NCBI GenBank assembly: GCA_963555815.3
Contig: CAUVWX020000001.1
Coordinates: 988,633 to 1,052,632, forward strand
Direction: 5' to 3'
Source of the DNA: a bacterium
Lineage (GTDB): Bacteria; UBA8248; JACPRG01; G963555815
DNA: 64,000 nt
Part shown: piece by piece, positions 2,463-63,232 of the stretch
Numbering within the stretch: position 1 is the first letter of the stretch
Layout: each line of letters begins with the position of its first letter
The notes under the pieces: model-generated
Seen by the model: only the letters and a program-made list of their open reading frames with translations
What the model was told of the DNA's origin: nothing
Database searches by the model: none
Program-made: the position numbers and the translations under genes

Positions 2463-2821
2463 GGGGGCGACCTGGTTTCGACGGGGGTACTGGAAGTCCG
2501 GGCTGCATGCCGAGGTGCCGTTGGCTCGTAAAACAAACGGCAAACTAATAACTGCCGACGCAGAGTTGGCTCTCGCCGCTTAATAAGTGGTGGGCGCCCT
2601 GCTGGTCCGAGCCCGTAGGGCTGGATTAGGGTGTCATAAAATCGGGATAGCCCAAGGGGCTGGGCCTCGGGGCCCTTCGGGTGAAACTAAACCGCAGGAT
2701 AGCCTCTCTCCTATCCCCGCCGGGGGAGCTGAGAGGGGCGAAAGAAAAATCCCGGCTAAGCGTGTAGATGCCCGAGACTGAAGACCTTCGGACGGGGGTT
2801 CGATTCCCCCCGCCTCCACCA
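2463..2821 (+). ncRNA. ssrA: tmRNA (transfer-messenger RNA)
   Basis: 5' GGGGGCGACCTGGTTTCGACGGGGG pairs with 3' ...GGACGGGGGTTCGATTCCCCCCGCCTCCACCA, forming a tRNA-Ala-like acceptor stem with G3:U70 and a T-arm. The internal tag reading frame ends ...GCC GAC GCA GAG TTG GCT CTC GCC GCT TAA TAA (..ADAELALAA). Confidence 0.93.
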
Positions 2822-6130: not shown

Positions 6131-7924
6131 TTACATCGCGCACTCGCCTTCGCCGCGCTCGAGCTTGTAAGGTTCGTCCTTCCCCCAGTCCTTGTAAAGG
6201 TCCAGGGCGTCCCCTTCCGGGGGCTCCAGCACCTTGGTGATGTCTTTGAGCACTGCTTCGAACCCCTTCGGTCCTACGCGGTCGACAAAATCGTTGAAGG
6301 TCTCGCCCGAATTCCGGTTCTCCTGATAGTAGATGAGTATCTTCCGGAGGGCTTCGGGCGTGCGCTTGGCCGGCACACGAGAGCGAATTCGCTTGCCGAT
6401 CCGCGTGGCTCCATCTGCATAGGAGCCTCCCAGGAAGACCTCGTATGCGGGCACCTGATTACCGTTGCCGGCGCCCTTAACGGCCGCCCCGTGGAAGCCG
6501 ATGTTGGCCAGATGGTGCTGGCCGCAGCTGTTGGGGCATCCGCTCATCTTGACGTGGAGGTCTTGGATGAACGGGTCCTTGATGATCTCGTCCTCTAGGA
6601 GCGATTTTCGCAGCGCATGGGCGAGTCCCATGGAGGAGGTAATCCCCAACTTGCAGCTGTCGGTGCCGGGGCAGGAGGTGACGTCGGTGATGGTATGGAC
6701 CTCGGTCTCCGCCAGGCCGATGTCCTCCAACTCCCTCCAGAGGGGGTAGAGTGTCTCCTCGCGCACCCACCGGAAGATGAGGTTTTGTTGATGGGTGGTG
6801 CGGGCTCGGCCCCCAGCATACTCCCTGGCGATCCGGGCCAGGGAGAAGAACTGTTCCGTCCGAATGTCCCCAAGGGGGACCTTCACGAAGACGGCGTGAT
6901 AGCCCTTCTGCCTTTGGGGTAGGACGTTGGTGTCCCGCCAGTGGTGAAAGGCCCGGTTGTTCCCGTTGGGCTGTTCGATATGGGCGGGGACGCCGGGGGC
7001 GCTGGCGGACTCGTCCTCCAGAAAGAGATAGGGCTCCGGGTCGATGGGCTCCTGGGCCCAGGGTTGCTGCAGTTCCTCGTCTGTCATTTCCCGGAAGGCG
7101 TCGATTCCGATGCGGTCGATGAGGAACTTGATCCGGGCCTTCATCTTGTTCTTTCGGAGCTCGTCCGAGCGGTGGAAGATGCGGATCACCGCCTCGCTGA
7201 CCTTCAGGTAGTCGGAGATCGGCACGAAGTCGTAGAGCGTATAGGCAACCCTCGGGAGGATGGAGAGACCGCCCCCGGTGACGATCCGGAAACCCCTGGA
7301 CTGCTGACCGTTTTCACTTCGAGTCTGCGCCAGAAATCCCAGATCGTGGATCCCGGTGATGGCACAGTCGGTCGGGCAGCCAGAGAAGGCCACCTTGAAC
7401 TTTCTCGGCAGGGTCTGCGTAAAGGGGTGCCGGAGGAAGTAGCGGGCGAAGGCCCCGACGTATGGCGTCACGTCGAAGATCTCGCCTTGGCAGACCCCGG
7501 CCATGGGGCAGCTCGTGACGTTGCGGACAGTGTTCCCGCAGGCCTCCCGGGTGCTGAGCCCCGCCTCCCCGATAACGCGCATGACTTCGGGCGTGTTTTC
7601 AAGCGGGATGAAGTGGAGCTGGATATTCTCCCGGGTAGTGATGTGCCCCTTCCCAAGGGGGACATAGTCCCTGACGACACGTCCCAGGGCCTCCAGCTGC
7701 TCCGCCGTCAAACCCCCAAAGGGGATCTTGATCCGGAACATCTGGGCATCGGCCTGCCTTTGGCCGTAGACCCCTTGGCAGAGTCGAAAGGCGGTGAACT
7801 TCCCCGGGTCCCACTCCCCCTGACGAAAACGCGTGGCCTCGGTCTCGAAGTCGTCGATCTCTTCGGGGAGGACCGGGAGAACGCCTTTCTGCCCCTCGAA
7901 GTTTTTGACGTGCTTGAATTCCAT
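6131..7924 (-). CDS. sir: Assimilatory sulfite reductase (ferredoxin-type, siroheme/4Fe-4S NirA/Sir family)
   Basis: The track ORF 6131-8116 was trimmed to the ATG at 7924 (MEFKHVKNFEG) to avoid overlap with cysH. It shows nitrite/sulfite reductase repeats and Cys-cluster motifs (TSCPGTDSCKLG, SGCPNSCGQHH) and lies immediately downstream of cysH. Confidence 0.88.
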   Translation of the reverse strand: MEFKHVKNFEGQKGVLPVLPEEIDDFETEATRFRQGEWDPGKFTAFRLCQGVYGQRQADAQMFRIKIPFGGLTAEQLEALGRVVRDYVPLGKGHITTRENIQLHFIPLENTPEVMRVIGEAGLSTREACGNTVRNVTSCPMAGVCQGEIFDVTPYVGAFARYFLRHPFTQTLPRKFKVAFSGCPTDCAITGIHDLGFLAQTRSENGQQSRGFRIVTGGGLSILPRVAYTLYDFVPISDYLKVSEAVIRIFHRSDELRKNKMKARIKFLIDRIGIDAFREMTDEELQQPWAQEPIDPEPYLFLEDESASAPGVPAHIEQPNGNNRAFHHWRDTNVLPQRQKGYHAVFVKVPLGDIRTEQFFSLARIAREYAGGRARTTHQQNLIFRWVREETLYPLWRELEDIGLAETEVHTITDVTSCPGTDSCKLGITSSMGLAHALRKSLLEDEIIKDPFIQDLHVKMSGCPNSCGQHHLANIGFHGAAVKGAGNGNQVPAYEVFLGGSYADGATRIGKRIRSRVPAKRTPEALRKILIYYQENRNSGETFNDFVDRVGPKGFEAVLKDITKVLEPPEGDALDLYKDWGKDEPYKLERGEGECAM

Positions 7925-7958
7925 CCTCAAGTCTTCCTTTGGGAAACGGCTATCCAGC

Positions 7959-8663
7959 TCATCTGTGAAGTCCACATTCGGTCTTCGCAAACCCGCGCCA
8001 GCGGCCCGCACGAGCGTCCTCTCCGAGCTTGACAGGCGAGGTGCAGTGGGTGCATCCGATACTGGGATAGTTCTGGTCGTGGAGGGAGTTGTAGGGGACG
8101 TCGTGGGCCTGGACATAGTCCCACACGTCCGCTGAGCTCCATCGGGCCAGCGGGTTCACCTTGACGAGCTCGAACCTTTGGTCCCACTCCACGATCCCGA
8201 TATTGGCCCGACTTGGGGCCTGGTCGCGACGGATCCCGGTAATCCAGGCTTCGAGGCCGGAGAGGGCCTGCCGAAGGGGCAGGACCTTTCTCAAGTGGCA
8301 GCAGCGGTCCGGGTCGTGCCTATAAAGCTCGGGTCCATGTTCGATGGCTTGAGCCTCGGGCGAGAGCGAGGAGCGATAGGTCACTGGCCGGACGCCGTAT
8401 TTCTCCACGATCCGGTCCCGGAGCTCGTAGGTCTCAGGGAACAGAAATTCGGTGTCCAGGTAAAACACCCTGAGGTCAGGCTCGATCTGAACGGCCATAT
8501 CCACTAGAGCCATCCCCTCGGCCCCAAAACCGGTGGCCAGGGCGATCTGGGGGTGAAACTCCCCTAGGGCCCAAGCCAGTACGGCCTGAGGACCCTTTTC
8601 TTCGAACTCACGCCCTAACTCTGCGACCAACTCCGGCGATAGCTTTTTACTGGTGTGATTCAT
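7959..8663 (-). CDS. cysH: APS/PAPS reductase (Fe-S type CysH; CC..CxxC plus C-terminal ECGLH)
   Basis: 234-aa ORF with the PP-loop family fold, DPDRCCHLRKV, SIGCTHCT and a C-terminal KTECGLHR motif. Confidence 0.9.
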   Translation of the reverse strand: MNHTSKKLSPELVAELGREFEEKGPQAVLAWALGEFHPQIALATGFGAEGMALVDMAVQIEPDLRVFYLDTEFLFPETYELRDRIVEKYGVRPVTYRSSLSPEAQAIEHGPELYRHDPDRCCHLRKVLPLRQALSGLEAWITGIRRDQAPSRANIGIVEWDQRFELVKVNPLARWSSADVWDYVQAHDVPYNSLHDQNYPSIGCTHCTSPVKLGEDARAGRWRGFAKTECGLHR

Positions 8664-8790
8664 GGATGGCCTCGCAAAGCTGGGTGATACCGTAAATGGC
8701 GATTGAGTTTTGAAGGTCTCGTCTCATCCGGATTTTTCAAACACTCCGCGAAAGACTCCCCCCGCACATAAAGATGCGGGGAGAAGTATG

Positions 8791-8901
8791 TTAACTAGTT
8801 GTTTTTAAAGGAAAAAACGAACGGGGTGGTCCTTTTCAGGACCCGCTACAGATATAGCCTAGATGTCCGTGAAGAGAAGAATCGTGGGGGGAGCCCCCGT
8901 A
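8791..8901 (-). promoter_or_regulatory. Conserved 111-nt 5'-leader element, copy A (candidate cis-regulatory RNA upstream of cysH)
   Basis: 100 of 111 nt are identical to 9880-9990 in the same orientation relative to the downstream gene. The RNA sense contains GGACA..GGGUCCUGAAAAGGACC, where two GGAC segments compete for one GUCC, followed by a U6 tract. Confidence 0.5.
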
Positions 8902-8970
8902 ACTGAGAGGCAAATTCTTCGAATATGCTGAGTAGATAACCATCATTCCCTTCCTCAGTCTGAATAACCT

Positions 8971-8999
8971 ACCTTAACTTCGAGGCAGAACCCTGTCAA
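8971..8999 (-). promoter_or_regulatory. Promoter of the cysH-sir leader (TTGACA-17-TAAGGT)
   Basis: On the minus strand, TTGACA is at 8999-8994 and TAAGGT at 8976-8971. The 19-nt block GAACCCTGTCAAGCAAAAA is identical in copy B. Confidence 0.5.
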
Positions 9000-9061
9000 G
9001 CAAAAAAATCAAACAATTCGCCTCAAAAGGGCCGAAAATTCTTTAGGGCATCCCTCGTCAC

Positions 9062-9826
9062 TTAGAGGGCCATTCTTAGGCCTGAGAGCAAGAGGACTCC
9101 AGCCAAGATTGCCCGAAGAGCCCTGATGGGGACCCTTGAAGCCAGGCGAGCGCCCAAAAGGACGCCCGGGATCGATCCCACGAGGATCTGGGCCGCGAGG
9201 GTGACGTCCACGGTCCCCAGGGAGAAATGGCCCATCCCAGCCAGTCCGAGAAGCAGGACCGCGTGGGCGATGTCTGTCCCCACGACCTCCCTGACGGTGA
9301 GCGAGGAGCTGACCAGAAGGAGGGCCACGATGATTGTCCCCGAGCCCACCGAAGTCACTGTGACCAGGAATCCCACGGCAGCGCCCGTCACAATCAAGGC
9401 GCGATTCGAGAGGAGAAGATCCTTCTTGCGCCGGATAAAGTCCGGGGCCTTCCTGCCAAGAAAGATTAAGAAGGCGATCAGGATGAGCGTAAAGCCCAAG
9501 GCGTGGCGGACGATCTCATCCAATCGGGCCCCGTTACTCCCTTTGAGGACGGCGAGAAAGAGGATCCCGACCGCCGCTCCCGGCAGGCTCCCCATCGCCA
9601 GTCGCTTCACCATGTTGAAATTGATGTTCGCCTGGCGATAGTGTTGGAACGCCCCAAAGACCTTCGTTACAAATCCGTACAAGAGGTCTGTCCCCACGGC
9701 CACGACGGGGCGCACGCCCATCAGGATCAAAAGGGGCGTCATCAGGGCGCCGCCCCCCATTCCCGTGAGCCCCACTAATATCCCAACACCGAAGCCCGCG
9801 AGGGCGATATAAAGGTCAAACTCCAT
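9062..9826 (-). CDS. TauE/SafE family sulfite/organosulfonate exporter-like membrane protein
   Basis: The track ORF 9062-9859 was trimmed to the ATG at 9826 (MEFDLYIALAGFGVGILVGLTGMGGGALMTP), which is preceded by GGAG. It is a polytopic membrane protein with the Gly-rich TauE-type motif. Confidence 0.82.
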   Translation of the reverse strand: MEFDLYIALAGFGVGILVGLTGMGGGALMTPLLILMGVRPVVAVGTDLLYGFVTKVFGAFQHYRQANINFNMVKRLAMGSLPGAAVGILFLAVLKGSNGARLDEIVRHALGFTLILIAFLIFLGRKAPDFIRRKKDLLLSNRALIVTGAAVGFLVTVTSVGSGTIIVALLLVSSSLTVREVVGTDIAHAVLLLGLAGMGHFSLGTVDVTLAAQILVGSIPGVLLGARLASRVPIRALRAILAGVLLLSGLRMAL

Positions 9827-9879
9827 CCAAACACTCCACGAAGAATTCTCGCCGCACAAAAAAGTGGCGAAAAATTCAG

Positions 9880-9990
9880 TTAACTACTTGTTTTTAAAGG
9901 AAAAAATGAACGAGGTGGTCCTTTTCAGGACCCGCTACAGATACAGCCCAGGTGTCCGTAAAGGGAGGAATCGTGGGGAGAACCCCCGTA
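9880..9990 (-). promoter_or_regulatory. Conserved 111-nt 5'-leader element, copy B (upstream of the TauE-like gene)
   Basis: Paralogous to 8791-8901 at 90% identity. The flanking leader sequence is only about 40% identical but has the same length. Confidence 0.5.
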
Positions 9991-10059
9991 GGTAAGCGGT
10001 AAATCTATTTTGTATCTCAAATCATTAGTCATAGTTCGTTCCCTTTTAGATTTCTATAC

Positions 10060-10088
10060 AGGGTAGGCGCCAAGGCGAACCCTGTCAA
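10060..10088 (-). promoter_or_regulatory. Promoter of the TauE-like gene leader (TTGACA-17-TACCCT)
   Basis: On the minus strand, TTGACA is at 10088-10083 and TACCCT at 10065-10060. It sits at a position homologous to the copy A promoter. Confidence 0.45.
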
Positions 10089-10146
10089 GCAAAAACCCAA
10101 AGGCTTTCCTGGGAGATGAGGATCCCTCGGCGATACCGCGGGAGGG

Positions 10147-11130
10147 CTAAGGCGAAGACATGCGCCAGAGGTGGACCGTGCCGTTCTCTGAGGCTGAGGC
10201 GATGAAGTGGCCATCAGGCGAAAAGGCAATCGAGTGGACCCAGCCCCCATGCCCCTCAAAGAGCTTCACTTCCAGCCCGGTGGACCTATCCCAAACGCGG
10301 ACCGTCTCGTCCACTGACCCAGAGGCCAGTCGTTTGCCATCGGGTGAGAAGGCCACGGAGGAGATAAGATTTTCATGCCCGTGAAAGATTCCCGCATCCT
10401 TCGTAAGGAGTCCCACTTCCTCTGTGTTGATCATGTGTATAACGGTGACCTGATCGGACGAAGAGGCCAGGAGTTTGCCGTCGGACGAAAACGAGACGGA
10501 AAAGATTCGCCATCCATGGTTCGTCATTTTCATCATTTGCAGCTTTGATGAGACGTCCCAGATGCGGACGCTGTTGTCAAATGACCCAGAGGCCAGGAGT
10601 TTGCCATCGGGTGAAAAGACAACAGAACGGACCTGGCGAGTATGTCCCTCGAGACGTGCTATTTCCTTCCCTGTGGACACATCCCAGAGGCGGATAGTGT
10701 TGTCAGCTGACCCAGAGGCCAGAAGACGGCCATCAGGTGAGAAAGCGACGGAGTTGACCGACTTTCCGTGCCCCAGCAGTCTCTTTATTTCTTGCCCTGA
10801 GGACACATCCCAGAGGCGGATAGTGTTGTCCCATGACCCTGTGGCCAGGACGCGGCCGTCGGGCGAGAAGGAGACGGCACCGACCATCATCTGATGGCCA
10901 TCAAGTTCTCTTAGCTCCTTCCCTGAGGAGACCTCCCAGAGGCGAACGGTTGTGTCACTAGACCCTGAGGCGACGAGGCGACTGTCAGGCGAAAAGGTGA
11001 CTGCGTGGACTGAGCCCTCGTGCCCATTGAGGACCTGGGCATCTTCATCTCCAGCGAAGGCGAGAGACGCCGCGAGCAGGACAGGAAAAATGAAAATCAA
11101 GGCCTGAAGGGGCCACCGACGCGTGGGCAT
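10147..11130 (-). CDS. Exported WD40-repeat beta-propeller protein
   Basis: 327 aa with seven units of the type GH...V.SVAFSPDG..LASGS.D.T.RLWD. The N-terminus MPTRRWPLQALIFIFPVLLAASLAFA looks like a signal peptide. GAGGAG lies upstream of the ATG. Confidence 0.88.
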   Translation of the reverse strand: MPTRRWPLQALIFIFPVLLAASLAFAGDEDAQVLNGHEGSVHAVTFSPDSRLVASGSSDTTVRLWEVSSGKELRELDGHQMMVGAVSFSPDGRVLATGSWDNTIRLWDVSSGQEIKRLLGHGKSVNSVAFSPDGRLLASGSADNTIRLWDVSTGKEIARLEGHTRQVRSVVFSPDGKLLASGSFDNSVRIWDVSSKLQMMKMTNHGWRIFSVSFSSDGKLLASSSDQVTVIHMINTEEVGLLTKDAGIFHGHENLISSVAFSPDGKRLASGSVDETVRVWDRSTGLEVKLFEGHGGWVHSIAFSPDGHFIASASENGTVHLWRMSSP

Positions 11131-11273: not shown

Positions 11274-12125
11274 CTACGGGGAAACCGTCCACAGGCGAAT
11301 GGAGCTGTCACCCGTTCCTCTAGCGAAGTGACGGCCATCTGGCGAGGAGGCGGACGAGTCGATCCAATCTACGCCCCCCTCGGGTCTCTCCGCCGGTTCC
11401 CCCGTTGCGACCTCCCAGAGATGGATGATGATGATATGACTCCCCTCCCCCGAGGCGAGGAGACGGCCGTCGGGCGAGAAGGTGACGGCGTTGACCCCGT
11501 GTCTATGCCCCCCCATGCTTCTTAATTCTCTCCCTGTGGACACATCCCAGAGGCGGGCGGTCTTGTCCTCTGACCCAGAGGCCAGGAGACGGCCATCGGG
11601 AGAAAAAGAGACGGAGAAGACGGCCTTCCTGTGCCCGCTCAGAAGTCCAATGTGTCTCCCGGTTGGGACCTCCCAGAGGCGTATCGTCTTGTCCCTTGAC
11701 CCCGAGGCAAGGAGGCGACCGTCAGGAGAGAAGGAGAGGGAGTAGATCCAGTCTCCATGGCCCTCGAGGTTCCCCAACCCTTTCCCTGAGGACACGTCCC
11801 AGAGACGAACGGAGCTGTCCTTTGACCCTGAGGCGAGGAGGCGACCGTTGGGCGAAAACCGAGTGGAGTAAACCCAGTCGCTATGCCCCTCCAGGCTTCT
11901 CAATTCTTTCCCTGAGGACACATCCCAGAGACGAACGGAACCATCCGTTGACCCTGAGGCGAGAAGGCGACCGTCGGGAGAGAAGGAGAGGGAGAGGACC
12001 GGGCCCTCATGCCCTTTCAGGATCCGGACCTCCTCCTCCGACTCCGCGGGAAAGGCAGAGGGTCTCGCCAGAAGGATGAGAACGAGGATAATCAAAATTC
12101 GAAGAGGCCACCGACGTGCGCGCAT
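11274..12125 (-). CDS. Exported WD40-repeat beta-propeller protein (paralog)
   Basis: The track ORF 11274-12179 was trimmed to the ATG at 12125 (MRARRWPLRILIILVLILLARPSAFPA), which is preceded by GGAGGAGGG. The WD40 units resemble those of 10147-11130. Confidence 0.85.
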   Translation of the reverse strand: MRARRWPLRILIILVLILLARPSAFPAESEEEVRILKGHEGPVLSLSFSPDGRLLASGSTDGSVRLWDVSSGKELRSLEGHSDWVYSTRFSPNGRLLASGSKDSSVRLWDVSSGKGLGNLEGHGDWIYSLSFSPDGRLLASGSRDKTIRLWEVPTGRHIGLLSGHRKAVFSVSFSPDGRLLASGSEDKTARLWDVSTGRELRSMGGHRHGVNAVTFSPDGRLLASGEGSHIIIIHLWEVATGEPAERPEGGVDWIDSSASSPDGRHFARGTGDSSIRLWTVSP

Positions 12126-12286
12126 CTCACCCTCCTCCGTTTTCATTAGGCTTGGGGAGTTCCCTCGTGATATGGCCACTGGACAAATCGTAACATAAAT
12201 CGTAGCACATCATGGCGGTCCCGGCGACCCGGCGGGCGTCCACGACTATCTTGAACCAGCGCATCACCCCGAGTATCCTTGATCCC

Positions 12287-14551: not shown

Positions 14552-16520
<1,969 letters not shown>

Positions 16521-16623
16521 ACCGGAGATAAAGATAGCATAAACCCAAAAAAGTGACAAGAGGCGAGGTGTCAAAACAACAAAAGCAAGAGGTTTGCCCC
16601 TTCGATTCGGCGGTGGACACACT

Positions 16624-25784: not shown

Positions 25785-25992
25785 TTCCTTCTTCTCCTCT
25801 CTGAGTGCAGAGCCATTTCTCAGTGCGAGTACCCTTCATCTGATCAGACCGCTCAGAGAGGAAAAAGATTCACAGGAAAAGCTGAATCCTTTTGAACCGG
25901 GCGGGGGTCTAATAAACAGGACAGATAGGGGGTCTTCAGGGAGTATTTTCTCTTCAAATAGGCCAGGCCCCAGGCAGAAGGGAGTGACGGCA

Positions 25993-27511
25993 GTGAAGGC
26001 AACTATCCGGTTGAAAAAGCAGGGCGGGACAGTCCGGGAGTTCCGTGCCGAGAAGGTTGAGATCGGCGCTTCAGAGGACTGCGACGTCCGGTTCGACTCG
26101 GAGATTTATCCCAGCGTCTCTAAACGACACGCCACCCTCGCCTTCGAGTGTGGTCTCTATGTCCTCTACGACAACGAGTCTGCTCGGGGCACCTTCGTCA
26201 ACGGGCGGCGGGTTTCCCTCGCGAGGCTCCGAAATGGGGACGAGATCCAGCTCGGACGGGGCGGTCCGAGCCTTCTCTTTGAGGGAGAGTCCATGGCCGT
26301 CTCCCGGTTGAAATTCGTCACCGGCCAGTGCCGGGTCAACTCGAAGATGCTTCAGGCGATGGTCCAGAACTCGTTGGAGGCGGTGGCGACGGGGAAAGTG
26401 AAGGACCGGAATGAGGTCGCAGGCTTTGTCCAGGAGGTCATGAAGCGGGCGAAGATCCAGCACTCGATCCGTCTCCTCGCAGGAACAGTTTCGGGATTTC
26501 TTCTCCTGGGTCTCTCGGTGGCGGGGGTTTTTCTGTGGGCGGGGGACTCCCTGAGAGACTTGGAGGAGAGGACGACATATCAGGTGGAGGCCACGCGCCA
26601 GCGTGAGGCCGAGTGGGTGGAGGCCTTGGCTGGCCGGGAGAGAGATCTGCGCATCCAGGTCGAGAATCTGACGGCCCAGTTGACCCAAACGAAGGTCGCC
26701 GCCTCGATAGACGCCAGGACAGTGGAAGACACCCTGAGGCATTTCAGAAGGGACCTGACGCAGACCCTCAAAGAAAACCCGCGGGATTTCGTCTCCGTGG
26801 CTGAGCGAAACCAGAGGGCGGTGGTGCTTATCCGCCACGTCTACCGGGTCGTCAACCCGGAGACGGGCTGCCTCGTCCGGTTTGTCGGTCGTCAGCCTGA
26901 CGGAAGCCCCCTCTTCGGCGAGGGCCTGGAGGGTGTCCTCGCAACCCGCGTCGTTCAGGGAACAGGCTTCGTCGTAGACCGCCAGGGGGTAATCCTAACG
27001 AACCGCCATGTGGCAGAACCCTGGGGGAATGATGAGCAACTTTTGAGGCTTGGATGGTCAGGGAGAGAGCCACCATCTGACCGTCACCTTTGCCGACACC
27101 GAGCGGGAACTTCCCGCCCGGCTCCTTCAGGTCTCACAGGAGGAGGACGTTGCGGCCTTGCAGATTCGGCCTTTTGCCGGGATGCCGGTGGTCCAGGGCA
27201 TCGAGTCTGACCCAGAAAAACTCCGCCAGGGACAGCGGATCGCCATCATCGGGTTCCCCGGCGGTGTCGAAACGAATGGGAGGACCATCACCTCCCTTAC
27301 CACGGGTGTTATCAGCAAGGCCAGCTTCAACAAGGAGCTCCAGTTCGACGCGGCCGTGAACCCTGGCAACAGCGGGGGCCCCATCTTCAACGAGCGGGGA
27401 GAGGTGATCGGCCTCGTCTACGGGGTCGGCGTGGACCGCGAGGGCGGCCGCCTCCACGGGGTCTACTATGGCGTCCCCATCCGGTTCACCGCGGGCCTTG
27501 CCGGGGGCTGA
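25993..27511 (+). pseudogene. FHA domain - TM - coiled coil - trypsin-like serine protease protein, paralog 1, frame-disrupted near 27063-27069
   Basis: The GTG at 25993 follows AAGGGAG. It has an FHA motif (YPSVSKRHATLAFE..YVLYDNESARGTFVNG) and a protease C-terminus (DAAVNPGNSGGPIF). Frame 1 (track 25573-27210) changes to frame 2 (track 27050-27511) within GGGAGAGAGCC, as judged against paralog 2. Confidence 0.75.
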
Positions 27512-27845
27512 AAAACTCCCTTCTCAAGGCCCCATTCACAGCGTTTAGGGTTCCTCCCAAAGAGCCGTCTCAAGCACCTGCCATCTACTCAGTATTTGAA
27601 GATCTTCTCTCCTTCCAGACGCTTAATTTTGATCCCCATTTCAATCGTAGGTTAGAACCGTTTTTATTTATAAATCAAATAGATAGTTCGGTGTGTGGAG
27701 ACGGGGTGATCGCTGGCAGGGGGCCTGGAAATTGAATACCCGACTAAATCGGCCTATATTATCTATATAAGACCCATAGAAGGGGGTTTTGCCGATGCCA
27801 CGGAAGTTGCTGAGGCACCCCATGGGGGTTCATGTTGAGAATTGA

Positions 27846-27858
27846 GGGGGGGGGGGGG
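27846..27858. repeat. Homopolymeric G13 tract
   Basis: Read directly as attgaGGGGGGGGGGGGGttc, 53 nt upstream of the paralog 2 ATG at 27911 and at the edge of an AT-rich intergenic island. Confidence 0.95.
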
Positions 27859-27910
27859 TTCAGATCTCGCCCTTTTCATGGCGGGACATCCCCCCGGTCT
27901 GGAGAAGGCG

Positions 27911-29430
27911 ATGAAAGCCGCTATTCGGTTAAAAGAAAAGGGCGGTTCGGTCCGAGAGTTTCGCGCCGGGGAGATTCAGATCGGATCTTCGGAGGGGTGC
28001 GATCTCCGTTTTGACCCGGAGATTTATCCCAGCGTCTCTGAACGACACGCGACCATCGCCTTCGAGTGCAGCCTCTATGTCCTCTACGACAACGATTCTG
28101 CCCGGGGCACCTTCGTCAACGGGCGGCGGACCTCTCTTGTGAGGCTCCAGAATGGAGATGAGATCCAATTTGGACAGGGGGGCCGAAGTGTGTCTTTGAG
28201 GGAGAGTCCCCACTGGCTACCCGGCTGAAATTCGTCACTGGCCGGTGCCGGGTGGATGCGAAGATGCTGCAGGCCCTGGTCCAGAACTCGCTGGATTCGG
28301 TAGCGACAGGGAAAGTGAAAGACCGGGATGAGGTCGCCGGCTTTGTCCAGGAGGTCCTGAAGCGGGCGAAGCTGCAGCACTCGCTTCGCCTTCTTGGGGT
28401 GGCGATTTTGGGATTTTTCTTCCTGGCTCTCTCGGTGGTGGGGATCTTTCTATGGACGGGGAATTCCCTAACGGAGCTGGAGGAGAGGACGGCCCGCCGG
28501 GAGGCGGCAACGCGCCAGCGGGAGGCCGAGTTGGCAAGGGCGGGGGTGATGCGAGAGAGTGAGCTCCGCCTTCAGATTGAAGCGCTCACGACCCAGTTGG
28601 ATCAAACGAGGGCCGCCACCTCGACAGAGGCAAGGGCCTTGACATCTGCTTTGAGGCACCTCAGGGCGGAGTTGGCGCAGGCCCTTGAGGACAGCCAGCA
28701 CAGTTTTATTGCCATCGCCCAGCGAAACCAGGGGGCGGTGGTCCTGCTCCACCACATGTACCAAGCGGTGAGCCAAGAAACGGGCCGCCCTATTCAGATC
28801 ATCGGCGAGAATGCCGACGGAAGCCCAATCTTCGGTGAGGATGGGGAGGGGATCCCTGCGATCCTGACGGCGCAAGGAACAGGCTTCGTCGTTGACCCCC
28901 AGGGGACAATCTTGACGATCCGCCATATCGTCGAGCCGTGGCAGGGGGATGAGCGTTTCCGCCGTCTGGGATTCTCAGGAAAGACTCTCGAGCTGACGGC
29001 CACTTTCGTCGACACAGACCGGGCACTTCCTGTGCGAGTTCTTCAGGTGTCCCAGGACGTGGATGCTGCCTCCCTGCGGGTTGAGCCTTTTCATGGGATG
29101 CGAGTGATCGAGAGCATCGCGCCCGATCTGTCTAAACTCCGCCAGGGACAGCGGATCACCATCATTGGGTTCCCCACCACCACCGAAGACGGGAGGGCCA
29201 TCACCTCCCTCACCACGGGTGTTATCAGCAAGGTGAGCCTCGACAAGGGGATCCAGTTCGACGCGGCCGTGAACCCGGGGAGCAGTGGGGGTCCCATTTT
29301 TAATGAGCAGGGAGAGGTGATCGGCGTTGTCTACGGGATCGGTGTGGGCCACGAAGGCGGCCGCCTCCACGGGGTCTATTACGGTGTCCCCATCCAGTTT
29401 GCCCTGACCCTCGTCGCGGAGGTTAAGTAA
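27911..29430 (+). pseudogene. FHA domain - TM - coiled coil - trypsin-like serine protease protein, paralog 2, frame-disrupted at G6 run 28177-28182
   Basis: The ATG at 27911 follows GGAGAAGG. Frame 2 (track 27842-28228) changes to frame 1 (track 28252-29430). Frame 1 reads GGPKCVFEGESPLATRLKFVTGRCRV, colinear with GGPSLLFEGESMAVSRLKFVTGQCRV of paralog 1. Confidence 0.75.
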
Positions 29431-29746: not shown

Positions 29747-30448
29747 ATGGCAGCAAAAGACGGTAAGGCCACCTTTAGGAAGGGTGAAAAGATCATCTAC
29801 CCCTTTCACGGGAGGGGGAAGATCCTCGGCCTCGTTCGCAGGGATCTGGTCGGTGGTCTGATGAAATTTTATGAGATCCAGCTGGACAATCAGCCGGACG
29901 CTTCCATCTATGTCCCCCTGAGTGTGGCAAAAGGTCTTGGGCTCCGTCGGCCTATGCGGAAAAAAGACGTGGGCAATATTATTGCAACCTTGAAATCCAG
30001 GGAGCCGGAGGAGGACGTAGAGCTCAACTGGAGAACCTGGAAGAAGCGCTACGAGGAGCAGAAAGAGACTCTTCGACAGGGGAGCGCCACTGGCCTCGCC
30101 GCGGTGGTCCGAAACCTCCACGAGTTTTCCAGAGGCCGATCCTTTAGTAGCAAAGAGCTGAGACATCTCTACGAAGATACTCATGAGCAGCTCGTCGAGG
30201 AACTTGCCGAGGCCCTGGGTAGCAAGGAGACGAAGGAGAAGCGGGCGAGACAGATGGTGGAGAGGGCCCTCAAGGGAAACGCGAAAAATTCAGGGGTGCG
30301 CTCAGGAAATTCAAAAGGACACGAAAAGAGTTCAAAAGTGCTGACAAAGAAAGCAAAGGTGCGAACAAAAAGTTCGAAGGTAAAGAGTTCAAAAACGCTG
30401 ACAAAGAAATCAAGGGTGCGAACAAAAAGTTCGAAGGTAAAGAGTTAA
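29747..30448 (+). CDS. cdnL: CarD/CdnL-family RNAP-interacting regulator with Lys-rich C-terminal extension (as read in this frame)
   Basis: It has an N-terminal CarD_CdnL_TRCF-like domain (FRKGEKIIYPFHGRGKILGL..FYEI...ASIYVP) and a CdnL-like helical second domain. The tail KSSKVLTKKAKVRTKSSKVK.. is encoded by 57-bp tandem repeats. GGAGGA lies upstream of the ATG. Confidence 0.8.
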   Translation: MAAKDGKATFRKGEKIIYPFHGRGKILGLVRRDLVGGLMKFYEIQLDNQPDASIYVPLSVAKGLGLRRPMRKKDVGNIIATLKSREPEEDVELNWRTWKKRYEEQKETLRQGSATGLAAVVRNLHEFSRGRSFSSKELRHLYEDTHEQLVEELAEALGSKETKEKRARQMVERALKGNAKNSGVRSGNSKGHEKSSKVLTKKAKVRTKSSKVKSSKTLTKKSRVRTKSSKVKS

Positions 30449-30498
30449 AAAGTGCGCTTAAAGAGTTCCAAGGTGCGGGCGAAGAGTTTGAAGGCGCG
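30328..30498 (+). repeat. 57-bp (19-codon) tandem repeat x3, third unit diverged
   Basis: Units are 30328-30384, 30385-30441 and 30442-30498, with a further degenerate unit upstream from about 30283. Confidence 0.9.
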
Positions 30499-30521
30499 GA
30501 CAAGGAGATCAAAGGCACGCC

Positions 30522-30870: not shown

Positions 30871-30976
30871 TCGAATATGCGTTCTCCGAAGCCACTGAGA
30901 GTCTGGATTGACCAGCTCCCTTGGCCGATAGGGTTAGGCGGGTGACTGTCTGGCCTCCCGTGTTTGGAAAGGAGAG
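30871..30976 (+). promoter_or_regulatory. Molybdenum cofactor (Moco) riboswitch
   Basis: The 3' part GGCCUCCCGUGUUUGGAAAGGAGAGC closely matches the E. coli moaA leader CGCCUCCCGUAUCUGGAAAGGUGUAC as I recall it. The 5' UUCUCCGAAGCC can pair (CUCC/GGAG) with the SD-containing 3' end. It lies directly upstream of moaA. Confidence 0.75.
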
Positions 30977-30983
30977 CGTTGAC

Positions 30984-32123
30984 TTGGAATACGTGGGTCA
31001 GCGTTCAGTTTTTTCTAAGCGCTGGCCCTTTTATTTTGGAGTGAGGAGTGAAGAGATGCCGCGTGACTTAGTAGATGAGCGAATGAACGCCAGCCTGGCC
31101 GAGTTGCCCGTGCTGCCAGCCATAGCGGAGAAGGGCCGGATGTCGGACGGGTTCGGACGGCATATCACCTACATCCGGGTGTCCGTCACGGACCGTTGCA
31201 ACATCCGGTGTGTCTACTGTATGCCCGAGGAGGGGATGCCGTGGATCCCCAAGGAAAATTTCCTCACCTTCGAGGAATTGGCCACCATCCTCGGGGTGAT
31301 GGGGGAAATGGGGCTGGAGAAGGTCCGCGTCACCGGAGGCGAGCCTTTATTGCGAAGGGGCCTTCCCGAATTTATCAAGATGGTCCGCAACGTCCCCTCC
31401 GTGAAGCAGATTGCCCTCTCGACGAATGCCATCCTTTTTGAGGAACAAGGTCCTGCCCTCGTGGAGGCTGGCCTGAACCAGATCAACATTAGTCTCGACA
31501 CCTTCCAAGAGGAGAAATTCGTTCGGATCTCGCGAAGGGACTATCACAACAAGGTGATGCGAGGGATCGCTAAGGCCGAGGAGCTCGGGATCAATCCCCT
31601 GAAGATCAACTGCACCGTGCTCAAGGGGTACAACGACGACGAGATCCTCGACTTCGCCCACGTCACCCGCGAGCGCCCCTGGCATGTCCGGTTCATCGAG
31701 TTCATGCCCTTGGAGGGGAGCAGGGACCTGCAAAAGGACACCTATATATCCAACCAGGACATCCTCGACCGCCTCATGGAGGATGGAGAGCTCCAGCCGG
31801 TCGACCCGTTCGACAACGGGGGCCCGGCGGTCTATTACCAGTACCCGGGGGCGCCGGGGACCGTTGGCTTCATCGACCCCCTCAGCCACAATTTCTGCGC
31901 CCGGTGCAATCGGATGCGTCTGACAGCTCAGGGGGACCTTCGCCCCTGCCTTTTCTCGGACATTGAAGTCCCCTTGGGAGAGGTGCTGAGAGAGGGTGCC
32001 TCGCAGCAAGAGCTGAAGGACCTCATCCATCAGGCCCTTGGGGTGAAGCCCGAGAGACACTATCTTGTTGAAAAAGGGGCTGATGCGAGTCAGCTGATCG
32101 CCCTCTCCCAGGTGGGTGGCTGA
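30984..32123 (+). CDS. moaA: GTP 3',8-cyclase MoaA (radical SAM)
   Basis: It carries the radical-SAM motif VTDRCNIRCVYCMPEEG and C-terminal MoaA Cys motifs (CARCNRMRLT). The TTG at 30984 is 9 nt after AAGGAG. The alternative ATG at 31140 (MSDGFGRHITYIRVS) would give the usual length of about 327 aa. Confidence 0.88.
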   Translation: MEYVGQRSVFSKRWPFYFGVRSEEMPRDLVDERMNASLAELPVLPAIAEKGRMSDGFGRHITYIRVSVTDRCNIRCVYCMPEEGMPWIPKENFLTFEELATILGVMGEMGLEKVRVTGGEPLLRRGLPEFIKMVRNVPSVKQIALSTNAILFEEQGPALVEAGLNQINISLDTFQEEKFVRISRRDYHNKVMRGIAKAEELGINPLKINCTVLKGYNDDEILDFAHVTRERPWHVRFIEFMPLEGSRDLQKDTYISNQDILDRLMEDGELQPVDPFDNGGPAVYYQYPGAPGTVGFIDPLSHNFCARCNRMRLTAQGDLRPCLFSDIEVPLGEVLREGASQQELKDLIHQALGVKPERHYLVEKGADASQLIALSQVGG

Positions 32124-41443: not shown

Positions 41444-41520
<77 letters not shown>

Positions 41521-41535
41521 ATTGATGGATATTGT

Positions 41536-41613
41536 GGTGGGCGTAGCTCAGCAGGTGAGAGCACTGGGCTGTGGACCCAGGGGTCGAGGGTTCGAATCCC
41601 TTCGCTCACCCCA
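41536..41613 (+). tRNA. tRNA-His (anticodon GTG)
   Basis: Extra G-1 before acceptor GTGGGCG/CGCTCAC, anticodon loop CTGTGGA and an encoded CCA. Confidence 0.9.
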
Positions 41614-41631
41614 AGTTGGTCTTTGTTTCGC

Positions 41632-41709
41632 GCGCCTGTAGCTCAGCCTGGAAAGAGCGTCGGACTTCGAATCCGCAGGTCGTAGGTTCGAATCCTACCG
41701 GGCGTGCCA
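41632..41709 (+). tRNA. tRNA-Arg (anticodon TCG)
   Basis: Acceptor GCGCCTG/CGGGCGT, anticodon loop CTTCGAA, T-loop TTCGAAT and an encoded CCA. Confidence 0.88.
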
Positions 41710-41722
41710 GAAACGGGTGGGT

Positions 41723-41798
41723 GGGCCGCTAGCTCAACTGGTAGAGCAACGGACTCTTAATCCGTGGGTTGAAGGTTCGAGTCCTTCGCGGCTCACCA
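41723..41798 (+). tRNA. tRNA-Lys (anticodon CTT)
   Basis: Acceptor GGGCCGC/GCGGCTC, anticodon loop CTCTTAA, T-loop TTCGAGT and an encoded CCA. Confidence 0.9.
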
Positions 41799-41842
41799 TT
41801 TTCTGGGCTTCACCGAGGCTCCTCAAAGGGCCCGGACAGAAT

Positions 41843-41926
41843 GCGAGGGTGGCGGAATGGCAGACGCGCTAGATTTAGGATCTAGTGCCTTCGGGCGTGG
41901 GGGTTCGAATCCCCCCTCTCGCACCA
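41843..41926 (+). tRNA. tRNA-Leu (anticodon TAG), long variable arm
   Basis: Acceptor GCGAGGG/CTCTCGC, anticodon stem-loop CTAGA-TTTAGGA-TCTAG, variable arm GTGCCTTCGGGCG and an encoded CCA. Confidence 0.88.
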
Positions 41927-45377: not shown

Positions 45378-45449
45378 AGGCACGTAGCTCAGGGGCAGAG
45401 CGCTTGCCTGACGCGCAAGAGGTCGGCGGTTCGAAACCGCCCGTGCCTA
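45378..45449 (+). tRNA. tRNA-Val (anticodon GAC), CCA not encoded
   Basis: Acceptor AGGCACG/CGTGCCT, D-arm GCTC-AGGGGCA-GAGC, anticodon stem-loop CTTGC-CTGACGC-GCAAG and T-arm GGCGG-TTCGAAA-CCGCC. Confidence 0.8.
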
Positions 45450-62668: not shown

Positions 62669-63232
62669 CTATCCCTTGCCGGGCTGGTAGTAGGGGTTGG
62701 TGCCTCCCCGGTGGTCCGTCACATCGACCAGCTCCTGGAGCTCGGGGGTCACTTCCTTCATTCTCGTCTCGATCCCCTGCCTCAGGGTGACGTCCACCAT
62801 GCCGCATCCCTGGCAGCCGCCGCCGAGTTGCACGTAGGCCACACTGTCCTTGACATCGATGAGTTGCACGTGACCTCCGTGCGCTGCCACGGCGGGATTG
62901 ATCTCCTCCTCCAGCAGTACCTGAAGTTTCGTCGCTATGGACGTGTCTCCGTTCGGGTTACCGGCGGCCACGGCCTTCGACGTGTCTCCGCCCGGGTTAC
63001 CGGCGGCCACGGCCTTCGACGTGTCTCCGCCCGGGTTACTGGCGGCCACAGTCTTCACAGAGCTTATCTCCCGTCCAATTTCCTCAATCCGTTCCTCAGT
63101 CCTTGAGGCCATGCTGGAGAGGCGATTTTCGACGGTGTCGAGAGAACGCTGGACGCGGCGAAGGCGCGAGTTTGACCGATAAAACAGAGCTGCCACGACA
63201 AGAACCGCGACAATCCAGGCGGCGGTCACCAT
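62669..63232 (-). CDS. Membrane-anchored NifU-C/Nfu-like Fe-S carrier with 13-aa tandem repeats
   Basis: It has an N-terminal TM helix, a coiled coil, 3x GNPGGDTSKAVAA, and then an Nfu domain (INPAVAAHGGHVQLIDV..VYVQLGGGCQGCGM). Confidence 0.78.
   Translation of the reverse strand: MVTAAWIVAVLVVAALFYRSNSRLRRVQRSLDTVENRLSSMASRTEERIEEIGREISSVKTVAASNPGGDTSKAVAAGNPGGDTSKAVAAGNPNGDTSIATKLQVLLEEEINPAVAAHGGHVQLIDVKDSVAYVQLGGGCQGCGMVDVTLRQGIETRMKEVTPELQELVDVTDHRGGTNPYYQPGKG
62940..63056. repeat. 39-bp tandem repeat x3 inside the Nfu-like gene
   Basis: Units are 62940-78, 62979-63017 and 63018-56. Units 1 and 2 differ at 2 nt. Confidence 0.95.

What the first reader, a model, noticed from the sequence alone, without database searches (positions are those of the whole stretch)
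8647..10088. Duplicated promoter-plus-leader module upstream of cysH-sir and of the TauE/SafE gene, with a 111-nt block under apparent constraint (candidate unclassified riboswitch or attenuator)
The two leaders are colinear over about 340 nt (8664-8999) and about 260 nt (9827-10088). Conservation is mosaic. A 19-nt block around the -35 element (GAACCCTGTCAAGCAAAAA) is identical. The next 87 nt have identical length but only about 40% identity. Then 111 nt (8791-8901 versus 9880-9990) are 90% identical. Next comes a hairpin whose sequence differs but still pairs (CUCCCCGCA..UGCGGGGGGAG versus UCGCC..GGCGA). Finally there is a conserved GGAGUGUUUG Shine-Dalgarno block. In RNA sense the 111-nt core has two features. 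A helix UACGGGG...CCCCGU (CCUCGU in copy B, which keeps G:U pairing) encloses it. A GUCC segment can pair either with an upstream GGAC or with a downstream GGACC, followed by U6, which resembles a terminator/antiterminator switch. Both downstream operons concern sulfite or sulfate chemistry. I could not match the core to the SAM-I, SAM-II/V, SAM-IV, SAH or T-box consensus from memory.
Basis: partly seen in the sequence, partly recalled or inferred. Interest (0 to 1): 0.7.

Follow-up and report, generated by a model that had tools for sequence, protein, structure and literature searches.

The report
Conserved leader peptide before sulfur genes
The duplicated conserved block is not a riboswitch: it is a 35-36-codon upstream gene (a leader peptide) followed by conserved RNA hairpins in front of the sulfite-reduction genes, and it probably lets translating ribosomes tune those genes to cysteine supply.

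Summary
The interpretation needs changing.

- **The block is coding.** Two thirds of the "111-nt constrained block" is the 3' part of a short ORF: uORF-A at 8836-8946 and uORF-B at 9925-10032.
- **Substitutions are codon-patterned.** Between A and B, 10 of 13 differences fall at third codon positions (pS 0.53, pN 0.05). Across eight leaders from four genomes, variable sites split 3/2/11 by codon position (p=0.004).
- **The duplication is old.** A copies cluster with A copies from other genomes, so recent gene conversion is excluded.
- **Related peptides exist.** Similar uORFs precede TauE-cysH-sir operons in more distant metagenomic relatives (hhalign P=2.8e-6).
- **No known family matches.** Rfam, Pfam, NCBIfam and PDB give nothing.
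- **Some RNA is constrained too.** The stop codon sits in an invariant hairpin, the next 46 nt are non-coding but conserved, and a hairpin with compensatory changes precedes the Shine-Dalgarno.

My best reading is a ribosome-dependent attenuator with an invariant C-terminal Cys codon. The closest precedent is the mycobacterial polycysteine sORF attenuators, but here the peptide itself is conserved. I could not derive the switching mechanism.

The parts
8988..9006 (-). Leader A (cysH): conserved -35 block TTTTTGCTTGACAGGGTTC, with TTGACA at 8994-8999. A -10-like TAAGGT lies 17 nt downstream, at 8971-8976.
   Evidence: None of 18 positions varies among 8 leaders. The homologous L004 promoter scores 11/12 against the sigma-70 consensus.
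8836..8946 (-). uORF-A: MMVIYSAYSKNLPLSYGGSPHDSSLHGHLGYICSGS* (stop UGA at 8836-8838). The conserved C-terminal 25 codons span 8839-8913. The invariant Cys codon UGU is at 8848-8850. The Shine-Dalgarno-like GAGGAAGGGA lies directly upstream.
8828..8843 (-). Hairpin GGUCC-UGAAAA-GGACC, with the uORF-A stop codon in its loop.
   Evidence: Invariant in 8 leaders and retained in L004.
8790..8835 (-). Conserved non-coding block after the stop. It contains CCCCGU (8821-8826), which can pair with ACGGGG (8895-8900) inside the uORF, a U-run (8810-8817), CCUUUAAAAA and UAGUUAAC.
   Evidence: Only 3 of 49 positions differ between A and B, against pS=0.53 in the uORF. The helix is 94% compatible. The function of this block is unexplained.
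8756..8786 (-). Hairpin H3 (CUUCUCCCCGCA...UGCGGGGGGAG), followed by UCUUUCG and then the Shine-Dalgarno.
   Evidence: It folds in all 9 leaders. Three pairs show compensatory changes. Its 3' arm can alternatively pair with CUCCCCCC inside the uORF.
8738..8747 (-). Conserved Shine-Dalgarno block GGAGUGUUUG of leader A. In this copy a 9-nt insertion moves it 16 nt away from the next AUG.
8647..8727 (-). Remnant second uORF (MRRDLQNSIAIYGITQLCEAIHESHQ*) that overlaps the cysH start. Its first codons derive from the TauE start. It is not under coding constraint.
   Evidence: It is frameshifted in L108. In L004 the equivalent ORF carries a second full copy of the peptide motif.
10077..10095 (-). 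Leader B (TauE): the same -35 block (TTGACA at 10083-10088). The -10-like TACCCT is at 10060-10065.
9925..10032 (-). uORF-B: MTNDLRYKIDLPLTYGGSPHDSSLYGHLGCICSGS*. Cys codons UGU are at 9943-9945 and 9937-9939.
9917..9932 (-). Stop-codon hairpin of leader B.
9879..9924 (-). Conserved non-coding block after the stop in leader B. CCUCGU (9910-9915) can pair with ACGGGG (9984-9989).
9846..9874 (-). Hairpin H3 of leader B (UUUUUCGCCAC...GUGCGGCGAGAA), followed by UUCUUCG.
9828..9837 (-). Shine-Dalgarno block GGAGUGUUUG, 7 nt before the TauE AUG (9824-9826).
9062..9826 (-). TauE/SafE-family (TSUP) permease gene, controlled by leader B.
   Evidence: Pfam PF01925, E=1.5e-46.
6131..8663 (-). cysH (7959-8663, PAPS/APS reductase) and sir (6131-7924, sulfite reductase haemoprotein), controlled by leader A.
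   Evidence: Pfam PF01507, PF01077 and PF03460. Gene calls on the source contig.

Best explanation
Each leader is a ribosome-dependent attenuator built around a translated upstream ORF of 35-36 codons.

**Layout.** A sigma-70-type promoter (TTGACA-17-TAnnnT) starts an RNA with a 5' UTR of about 25 nt and a Shine-Dalgarno. The leader peptide follows. Its first roughly 10 residues are free to vary. Its last 22-25 residues are conserved (LPL[ST]YGGSPHDSSL[HY]GHLG[CY]ICSGS) and end with an invariant UGU Cys codon 4 codons before the stop. The stop codon sits in the loop of an invariant hairpin. Then come 46 conserved non-coding nucleotides, a stable hairpin with a U/C-rich tail, and the Shine-Dalgarno of the downstream gene (TauE, or the cysH-sir unit).

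**Proposed working (inferred).** When Cys-tRNA(Cys) is scarce, the ribosome pauses at the C-terminal Cys codon(s), helped by the conserved nascent chain in the exit tunnel. In that position it holds the 5' arm of the stop-codon hairpin and keeps the leader just downstream covered and unfolded. Transcription or translation then proceeds into the sulfite-reduction genes. When cysteine is plentiful, the ribosome terminates and leaves. The stop hairpin, the ACGGGG/CCCCGU helix and hairpin H3 then fold. The naked C-rich, U-rich leader is terminated (by H3 plus its U-rich tail, or by Rho) or is poorly translated.

**What is shown (computationally).**
- The ORF exists, and selection on it is at the protein level.
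- It is always the first ORF upstream of TauE-cysH-sir type operons.
- The hairpins exist and are conserved.
- The duplication is older than the split of four genomes.

**What is inferred.** That the ORF is translated, that it acts in cis, that cysteine is the signal, and the on/off logic.
For: **Coding signature.**
- winA versus winB over the last 25 codons: pS=0.53, pN=0.05, with 10 of 13 differences at third positions.
- Eight leaders from four genomes: variable sites by codon position are 3/2/11, binomial p=0.004. The N-terminal codons vary evenly, 7/7/7.
- The start codon, frame and stop are preserved in all copies. No other frame stays open throughout.

**Age of the duplication.** A copies are 91-98% identical to A copies of other genomes, but only 85-89% identical to the B copy of their own genome. 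The duplication is therefore old and there is no gene conversion.

**Relatives.**
- L004 (CysH 80% identical) has the same promoter and uORF, plus a second tandem uORF copy before cysH.
- L006, L008, L089-91, L095 and P0242 carry a 42-codon uORF upstream of TauE-cysH-sir(-cobA-cysG). Between L006 and L008, pS=0.54 and pN=0.19.
- Profile-profile comparison of the two peptide subfamilies gives probability 88%, P=2.8e-6.

**Cys enrichment.** There are 1-3 Cys in 33-45 residues, against 1.0% Cys in the window's long ORFs. The conserved Cys uses the minor codon UGU.

**RNA architecture.**
- The 3' end of the uORF is base-paired with sequence just after the stop in every lineage.
- The stop hairpin is invariant, and H3 keeps pairing through compensatory changes.
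- A C>G region follows the stop, with C/G up to 4.2.

**No known family.** There is no match in Rfam, in Pfam or NCBIfam, or in PDB. AlphaFold2 gives no confident fold (pLDDT 52).

**Precedent.** Cys-codon sORF attenuators of cysteine genes are known in mycobacteria (10.1101/834739).
Against: - **No switch reproduced.** Equilibrium folding with a ribosome footprint placed at every codon gave no consistent change in H3 formation or Shine-Dalgarno exposure. H3 forms in all states.
- **H3 is a weak terminator.** Its tail has only about 4 U in 7-8 nt in the window copies, and the terminator scan does not flag it.
- **Cys codons are few.** They are never consecutive (C-I-C at most), and the window's A copy has only one.
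- **The peptide is over-conserved for codon sensing.** Conservation over about 22 residues is far more than codon-based attenuation needs. It would fit an arrest peptide or a functional micropeptide equally well.
- **Weak initiation signals in one subfamily.** The L006-type uORFs lack a clear Shine-Dalgarno.
- **Homology is only moderately supported.** A plain HMM search between the two peptide subfamilies is not significant, E=1.6.
- **The sample is small.** About seven independent lineages, all from uncultured metagenomic material, with no expression data.
Confidence: 0.55

Rival explanations
1. The uORF encodes a metabolite-sensing arrest peptide of the TnaC/SpeFL type. The conserved nascent chain and a small sulfur metabolite (cysteine, sulfite or another) together stall the ribosome at or near the stop codon. 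The stalled ribosome blocks Rho loading on the C-rich leader, or remodels it, and so switches the operon. This is a mechanistic variant of the best explanation, not its opposite.
For: - Only the C-terminal 22-25 residues are conserved, about one exit-tunnel length, while the N-terminus varies.
- Within each subfamily, conservation runs up to the stop: CSGS* in the window type and SARMS* in the L006 type.
- The stop codon context UCC-stop-GGAC(C) is shared by both subfamilies.
- A C>G stretch follows the stop directly.
- The spacer to the next gene is long, 98-216 nt.
Against: - The distance from the conserved motif to the stop codon varies between lineages, with 3 to 7 residues after the invariant Cys. 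That is unexpected if the arrest happens at the stop.
- There is no similarity to any known arrest peptide in Pfam, NCBIfam or PDB.
- There is no experimental handle on a ligand.
Confidence: 0.2
2. The small ORF encodes a functional micropeptide that acts in trans, for example a partner of the permease or of sulfite reductase, or a thiol or metal-binding peptide. It is simply the first gene of the operon.
For: - Purifying selection on the amino-acid sequence is strong (pN/pS about 0.1).
- His and Cys residues are clustered in the window type (H-x4-H-x-H-x2-C-x-C).
- One homologue is called as a gene in NCBI assemblies (P0121).
Against: - It is duplicated together with its promoter in front of each of two transcription units, and it is tandem in L004.
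- It is always separated from the next gene by 98-216 nt of conserved, structured, non-coding RNA, rather than being tightly coupled.
- The His residues are not conserved in the L006 type.
- It has no predicted fold and no hydrophobic segment.
Confidence: 0.2
3. One reading: the 111-nt core is a ligand-binding riboswitch aptamer for a sulfur metabolite, with a terminator/antiterminator expression platform.
For: - Helices proposed from the sequence are compatible across nine leaders (89% of cells paired, against 43-56% for slid controls).
- The 46 nt after the stop are constrained at the nucleotide level.
- The genomic context is sulfur assimilation.
Against: - Variation inside the core has three-base periodicity, and an ORF is preserved in all copies.
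- Between subfamilies the amino-acid motif is kept while the nucleotide sequence is not.
- Folding energies are no better than shuffles (z=-1.47 and +0.30).
- Covariation is weak and is mostly GC<->GU.
- There is no Rfam hit, even at E<=10.
Confidence: 0.05
4. The identity of the two cores is a by-product of recent duplication or gene conversion and has no function.
For: The conservation is mosaic, with sharp boundaries.
Against: - Synonymous sites differ at pS=0.53 between A and B.
- A and B each cluster with their orthologues in three other genomes.
- The element is present in relatives with only 63-80% CysH identity.
Confidence: 0.02

Closest known systems
Mycobacterial polycysteine leaderless short ORFs (Ms5788A and the 'Cys ribulon'; Canestrari et al. 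2020, 10.1101/834739)
   Same: Both are short ORFs placed first in transcripts of cysteine/sulfur metabolism operons. Both carry Cys codons near the 3' end. In both, the ORF's 3' part is base-paired with downstream leader RNA. In both, several loci in one genome carry related sORFs. In the mycobacterial case, a ribosome pausing at the Cys codons relieves repression.
   Different: - Here the ORF is Shine-Dalgarno-led, with a 5' UTR of about 25 nt, not leaderless.
- The Cys codons are single or C-x-C, never a consecutive tract.
- A peptide of about 22 residues is conserved well beyond the Cys codons.
- A Cys-tract:SD duplex is not evident.
- The host lineage is unrelated (uncultured; the nearest labelled relative is a Nitrospinota MAG).
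Classical ribosome-mediated transcription attenuators of amino-acid operons (trpL, hisL, pheL, leuL; established knowledge)
   Same: Both have the order promoter, short leader ORF, hairpins, then the first structural gene. In both, the end of the leader ORF overlaps RNA helices. Both are expected to respond to charged-tRNA supply.
   Different: - There is no run of regulatory codons.
- The leader peptide sequence itself is under purifying selection.
- No clean pair of mutually exclusive terminator and antiterminator helices could be derived.
- The candidate terminator (H3) has a weak U-tail.
Metabolite-sensing arrest peptides TnaC (PMC8429421) and SpeFL (own knowledge)
   Same: All are 24-36-residue leader peptides whose conserved residues lie in the C-terminal, tunnel-resident part. 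All have a conserved stop-codon context. All have a long spacer to the regulated gene, with C-rich RNA next to the stop.
   Different: - There is no sequence similarity.
- This element regulates a biosynthetic (assimilatory) unit rather than a catabolic one.
- The spacing from the motif to the stop is not fixed.
- Arrest has not been tested.
Sulfur-related riboswitches (SAM-I/II/III/IV/V/VI, SAM-SAH, SAH) and T-box leaders in Rfam
   Same: All are cis-regulatory 5' leaders of sulfur metabolism genes.
   Different: There is no covariance-model match at E<=10. Known riboswitches in the same window (TPP, Moco) are detected by the same scan. The core here is protein-coding.

Membership tests
Rfam riboswitch / T-box families (SAM-I..VI, SAH, T-box and all 4227 models) | Match to the family covariance model at or near the gathering score | tested here: not met
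   The best hits in 8000-10800 are chance-level (E 0.39-6.7, far below gathering). Nothing is found in the relatives' leaders. The TPP and Moco riboswitches elsewhere in the window are found.
Riboswitch (generic) | Conservation explained by RNA structure: covarying helices, and no reading-frame periodicity | tested here: not met
   Variable sites by codon position are 3/2/11 (p=0.004). pS is 0.53 against pN 0.05. Folding z-scores are -1.47 and +0.30.
Ribosome-dependent leader-peptide attenuator (trpL/hisL type) | Short ORF with a start codon and ribosome-binding site directly downstream of the promoter and upstream of the regulated genes | tested here: met
   uORF-A (8836-8946) and uORF-B (9925-10032) have GAGGAAGGGA / AAGGGAACGA upstream. 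They lie about 25 nt after the inferred transcription start.
Ribosome-dependent leader-peptide attenuator (trpL/hisL type) | [quoted passage not shown] | tested here: inconclusive
   There are 1-3 Cys per 33-45 codons, against a 1.0% background, and one Cys codon is invariant in all members. The Cys codons are never consecutive.
Ribosome-dependent leader-peptide attenuator (trpL/hisL type) | Mutually exclusive terminator and antiterminator helices, one of them overlapping the leader ORF | tested here: inconclusive
   Helices overlapping the ORF end exist in all lineages. An alternative pairing between the ORF and the H3 3' arm has some covariation. However, footprint-constrained folding shows no switch, and the terminator scan does not flag H3.
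Mycobacterial polycysteine leaderless sORF attenuators | Leaderless mRNA (5' AUG/GUG at the transcription start) | tested here: not met
   The promoter geometry puts the start about 25 nt upstream of the AUG, with a Shine-Dalgarno in between. This is inferred from sequence; no 5' end has been mapped.
Mycobacterial polycysteine leaderless sORF attenuators | At least two consecutive Cys codons | tested here: not met
   The closest spacing is C-I-C. Other members have one Cys, or two Cys separated by 2-8 residues.
Mycobacterial polycysteine leaderless sORF attenuators | Location upstream of cysteine/sulfur metabolism operons | tested here: met
   TauE, cysH, sir (and cobA, cysG) lie downstream in every case.
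Regulatory arrest peptides (TnaC, SpeFL, SecM, RAPP class) | Sequence membership in a described arrest-peptide family | tested here: not met
   There are no Pfam, NCBIfam or PDB matches at E<=10.
Regulatory arrest peptides (TnaC, SpeFL, SecM, RAPP class) | Peptide-sequence-dependent ribosome stalling | not testable with these tools
   This needs toeprinting, Ribo-seq or in vitro translation. Only the conservation pattern (C-terminal 22-25 residues) is suggestive.

The most novel reading that the evidence does not exclude
The conserved 22-residue C-terminal peptide is a new nascent-chain sensor. Inside the ribosomal tunnel it makes translation of the final codons (the Cys codon and/or termination at the hairpin-embedded stop) sensitive to a sulfur metabolite or to Cys-tRNA. 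This would give a previously undescribed arrest-peptide class that controls assimilatory sulfite reduction, and it has been duplicated to control two units independently.
Probability: 0.2. Interest if true: 0.8.

Novelty: new variant of a known kind. Interest (0 to 1): 0.5.

Why it matters
Few amino-acid- or metabolite-responsive leader peptides are known outside the classical enterobacterial operons. For cysteine, the only described case is the mycobacterial polycysteine sORFs. This element would be a second, unrelated solution: a Shine-Dalgarno-led uORF with a conserved peptide, sparse Cys codons and a stop codon held in a hairpin, in an uncultured lineage.

It is also a cautionary example for riboswitch discovery. 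A sharply bounded conserved block in a 5' leader upstream of the "right" genes turned out to be a peptide-coding uORF that gene callers miss. Only 2 relatives exist among 1.84 billion representative proteins.

If the peptide proves to be a true arrest sensor, it would add a sulfur-responsive member to a very small class.

Tried and rejected
- **Rfam.** I ran an E-value scan of the region, a gathering scan of the whole window, and a scan of the relatives' leaders. None matched the leaders.
- **Genome-contig scan.** The scan used a TauE protein alignment and saturated on generic patterns. It returned 80 distant TauE loci (Actinomycetota, Chloroflexota and others). None carries the peptide, so this scan was largely wasted.
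- **Metagenome-contig scan.** I used a back-translated degenerate pattern. It gave 7 hits, of which only one (L095) is real. The others are chance matches in unrelated contexts.
- **Other CysH homologues.** P0014, P0016 and P0008 have other gene orders (sir-cysH, no TauE) and no uORF.
- **Plain HMM search between peptide subfamilies.** It was not significant. Only the profile-profile comparison supports homology.
- **Frame-0 readthrough or selenocysteine.** I considered that the conserved block after the stop might be a readthrough extension. I rejected this because the changes there fall at second codon positions (alignment).
- **Second promoter or palindromic operator in the post-stop block.** Neither is conserved.
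- **Thermodynamic switch modelling.** Ribosome footprints placed at each codon gave no consistent effect on H3 or on Shine-Dalgarno accessibility, in six leaders.
- **The uORF2 in leader A.** As a functional coupling ORF it is rejected, because it is frameshifted in L108.
- **Structure prediction of the peptide.** It was uninformative (pLDDT 52).


Full report
**Observation.** The genes in 6131-9826 lie on the minus strand. They are sir (NIR_SIR domains), cysH (PAPS_reduct, 7959-8663) and a TauE/SafE permease (9062-9826). The two upstream regions align without gaps from a 19-nt block, TTTTTGCTTGACAGGGTTC, to beyond a well-conserved core. That block sits at 8988-9006 and 10077-10095 and occurs only twice in the window, where 0.01 matches are expected by chance. 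The core is also a two-copy repeat.

**What the core is.** No Rfam family matches, even at E<=10. The same library does find a TPP riboswitch, a Moco riboswitch and a tmRNA elsewhere in the window. Neither leader folds better than shuffled sequence (z=-1.47 and +0.30).

Relatives settled the matter. I obtained them through CysH and TauE homologues and their contigs. When I aligned the leaders of more distant relatives (L006, L008), the conserved stretch read as an open reading frame. The same holds in the window:
- uORF-A, 8836-8946: MMVIYSAYSKNLPLSYGGSPHDSSLHGHLGYICSGS*
- uORF-B, 9925-10032: MTNDLRYKIDLPLTYGGSPHDSSLYGHLGCICSGS*

**Evidence that selection acts on the peptide.**
- Over the last 25 codons, A and B differ at 13 positions, 10 of them at third codon positions. 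This gives pS=0.53 and pN=0.05.
- Four genomes carry both leaders: the window, L005, L104 and L108, with TauE 89-100% identical. Across these eight leaders, variable sites in the conserved codons fall 3/2/11 by codon position (binomial p=0.004). The ten N-terminal codons vary 7/7/7.
- L006 and L008 give pS=0.54 and pN=0.19 over their 42-codon uORF.
- No other frame on either strand stays open in all members.

**Not gene conversion.**
- Synonymous divergence between A and B is substantial.
- Within the conserved block, each A copy is 91-98% identical to A copies of other genomes, but only 85-89% identical to the B copy of its own genome.

In the more distant relatives L006, L007, L008 and L089, TauE-cysH-sir is a single operon with one leader upstream of TauE. 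In the window lineage, and in L004, the promoter-leader module was copied in front of cysH. The copy included the first codons of TauE (ATGGAGTTTGACCTT versus ATGAGACGAGACCTT). In L004 the ORF that starts there carries a second full copy of the peptide motif. In the window it is a decayed 26-codon remnant, frameshifted in L108.

**How wide the family is.** It is rare, or rarely annotated.
- A word-indexed search of 5.8 billion proteins found one member, P0121.
- An exhaustive HMM search of 1.84 billion representatives found one more, P0242.
- A back-translated pattern scan of JGI metagenomes found one real locus.
- Eighty distant TauE loci from GTDB genomes lack it.
- CysH homologues in other gene orders lack it.

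The window-type and L006-type peptides share this motif: [FY]-[GA]-[GA]-x-P-[HYF]-x-S-[SC]-[LV]-x3-[LF]-G-x2-C. Profile-profile comparison gives 88% probability and P=2.8e-6. A plain HMM search is not significant, so I treat their homology as probable, not proven. It is supported by identical position and by a shared terminal UCC-stop-GGAC(C) context. No member matches Pfam, NCBIfam or PDB. AlphaFold2 gives no confident fold.

**RNA features that remain real.**
1. The stop codon lies in the loop of GGUCC-UGAAAA-GGACC. This hairpin is invariant in eight leaders and is kept in L004. In every lineage the last codons of the uORF pair with sequence just after the stop.
2. The 46 nt after the stop are non-coding, because in-frame changes there hit second positions. 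Yet only 3 of 49 positions differ between A and B, which is far below the synonymous rate. Within this stretch, CCCCGU varies only C<->U and can pair with ACGGGG in the uORF (94% of cells paired).
3. Hairpin H3 precedes a U/C-rich tail and the Shine-Dalgarno. It folds in all nine leaders and shows three compensatory pairs. Its 3' arm can alternatively pair with CUCCCCCC inside the uORF, with some covariation.
4. A C>G stretch follows the stop.
5. The -35 block is invariant over 18 nt. That is more than a hexamer needs and hints at an additional DNA-level regulator.

**Mechanism.** My best-supported reading is a ribosome-dependent attenuator in which translation of the leader peptide sets expression of the sulfite-reduction genes. 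Four features point to pausing at the Cys codon(s), assisted by the nascent chain, as the sensing step:
- The invariant Cys codon marks the C-terminal edge of the conserved motif.
- It uses the minor codon UGU.
- Cys is enriched about 6-8-fold over background.
- The element sits in front of cysteine-pathway genes.

A ribosome paused there would occupy the 5' arm of the stop-codon hairpin.

I could not derive the output step. Footprint-constrained equilibrium folding shows no consistent switch. H3 has only a weak U-tail, and the terminator scan does not flag it. Rho-dependent control, intrinsic termination at H3, and translational occlusion all remain open. A ligand-sensing arrest peptide is a live variant. 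A trans-acting micropeptide is the main true rival.

**Comparison with known systems.** The closest precedent is the mycobacterial polycysteine leaderless sORFs that attenuate cysteine operons (10.1101/834739). The present element fails two of that class's defining features: it is not leaderless, and its Cys codons are not consecutive. It also adds a conserved peptide. Literature searches found nothing on a leader peptide for cysH, sir or TauE.

**Verdict.** The riboswitch reading is not supported. The attenuator reading is supported, in a different form. This is a new variant of a known kind, of moderate interest. Interest would be high if the peptide proves to be a sulfur-responsive arrest sensor.

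Noticed in passing
window 16434-16525 (-): A TPP riboswitch (Rfam RF00059, 56 bits) lies directly upstream of the thiC ORF at 14552-16303 (-).
   Followed up: no
window 30872-30990 (+): A molybdenum/tungsten cofactor riboswitch (RF01055, 40.4 bits, just above the gathering score).
   Followed up: no
window 2463-2821 (+): A tmRNA gene (RF00023, 212 bits). An SmpB gene is called nearby on the source contig.
   Followed up: no
window 41444-41923 (+) and 45378-45449 (+): A cluster of six tRNA genes, plus one further tRNA.
   Followed up: no
window 10147-11130 (-) and 11274-12179 (-): Two adjacent WD40 beta-propeller genes whose 126-nt blade repeats dominate the repeat scan. This is unusual content for a bacterial genome neighbourhood.
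   Followed up: partly
window 25986-29419: A tandem duplication of about 1.9 kb: two paralogous units, 74-84% identical, spaced about 1917 nt apart.
   Followed up: no
window 30304-30516 and 62940-63056: A 57-nt tandem repeat array (K/E-rich if translated) and a 39-nt x3 tandem repeat.
   Followed up: no
window 8647-8727 (-): A remnant second uORF (MRRDLQNSIAIYGITQLCEAIHESHQ*) lies between leader A's Shine-Dalgarno and cysH and overlaps the cysH start. It is frameshifted in L108. In L004 (589-726) the equivalent ORF is a second intact copy of the leader peptide, so the cysH leader once had tandem uORFs.
   Followed up: partly
window 8790-8835 (-) and 9879-9924 (-): The non-coding block after the uORF stop (UGAAAAGGACC...CGUUC...CCUUUAAAAA...UAGUUAA) is more conserved than the synonymous sites of the uORF. 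Its role is unexplained; it might be an RNase, Hfq or Rho site, or an alternative pairing partner.
   Followed up: partly
window 8988-9006 (-) and 10077-10095 (-): The -35 region is invariant over 18 nt in eight leaders, well beyond the TTGACA hexamer. This suggests an UP element or a transcription-factor site shared by both promoters. In leader B its T-run doubles as the tail of a terminator-like hairpin (10096-10113) that closes the upstream WD40 gene.
   Followed up: partly
L103 3205-3396; L099 1-8: In other lineages a DUF2292 small protein (63 aa) sits directly upstream of cysH, or is fused to a sulfonate-binding protein. This is another small ORF associated with sulfur assimilation, unrelated to the peptide described here.
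   Followed up: no
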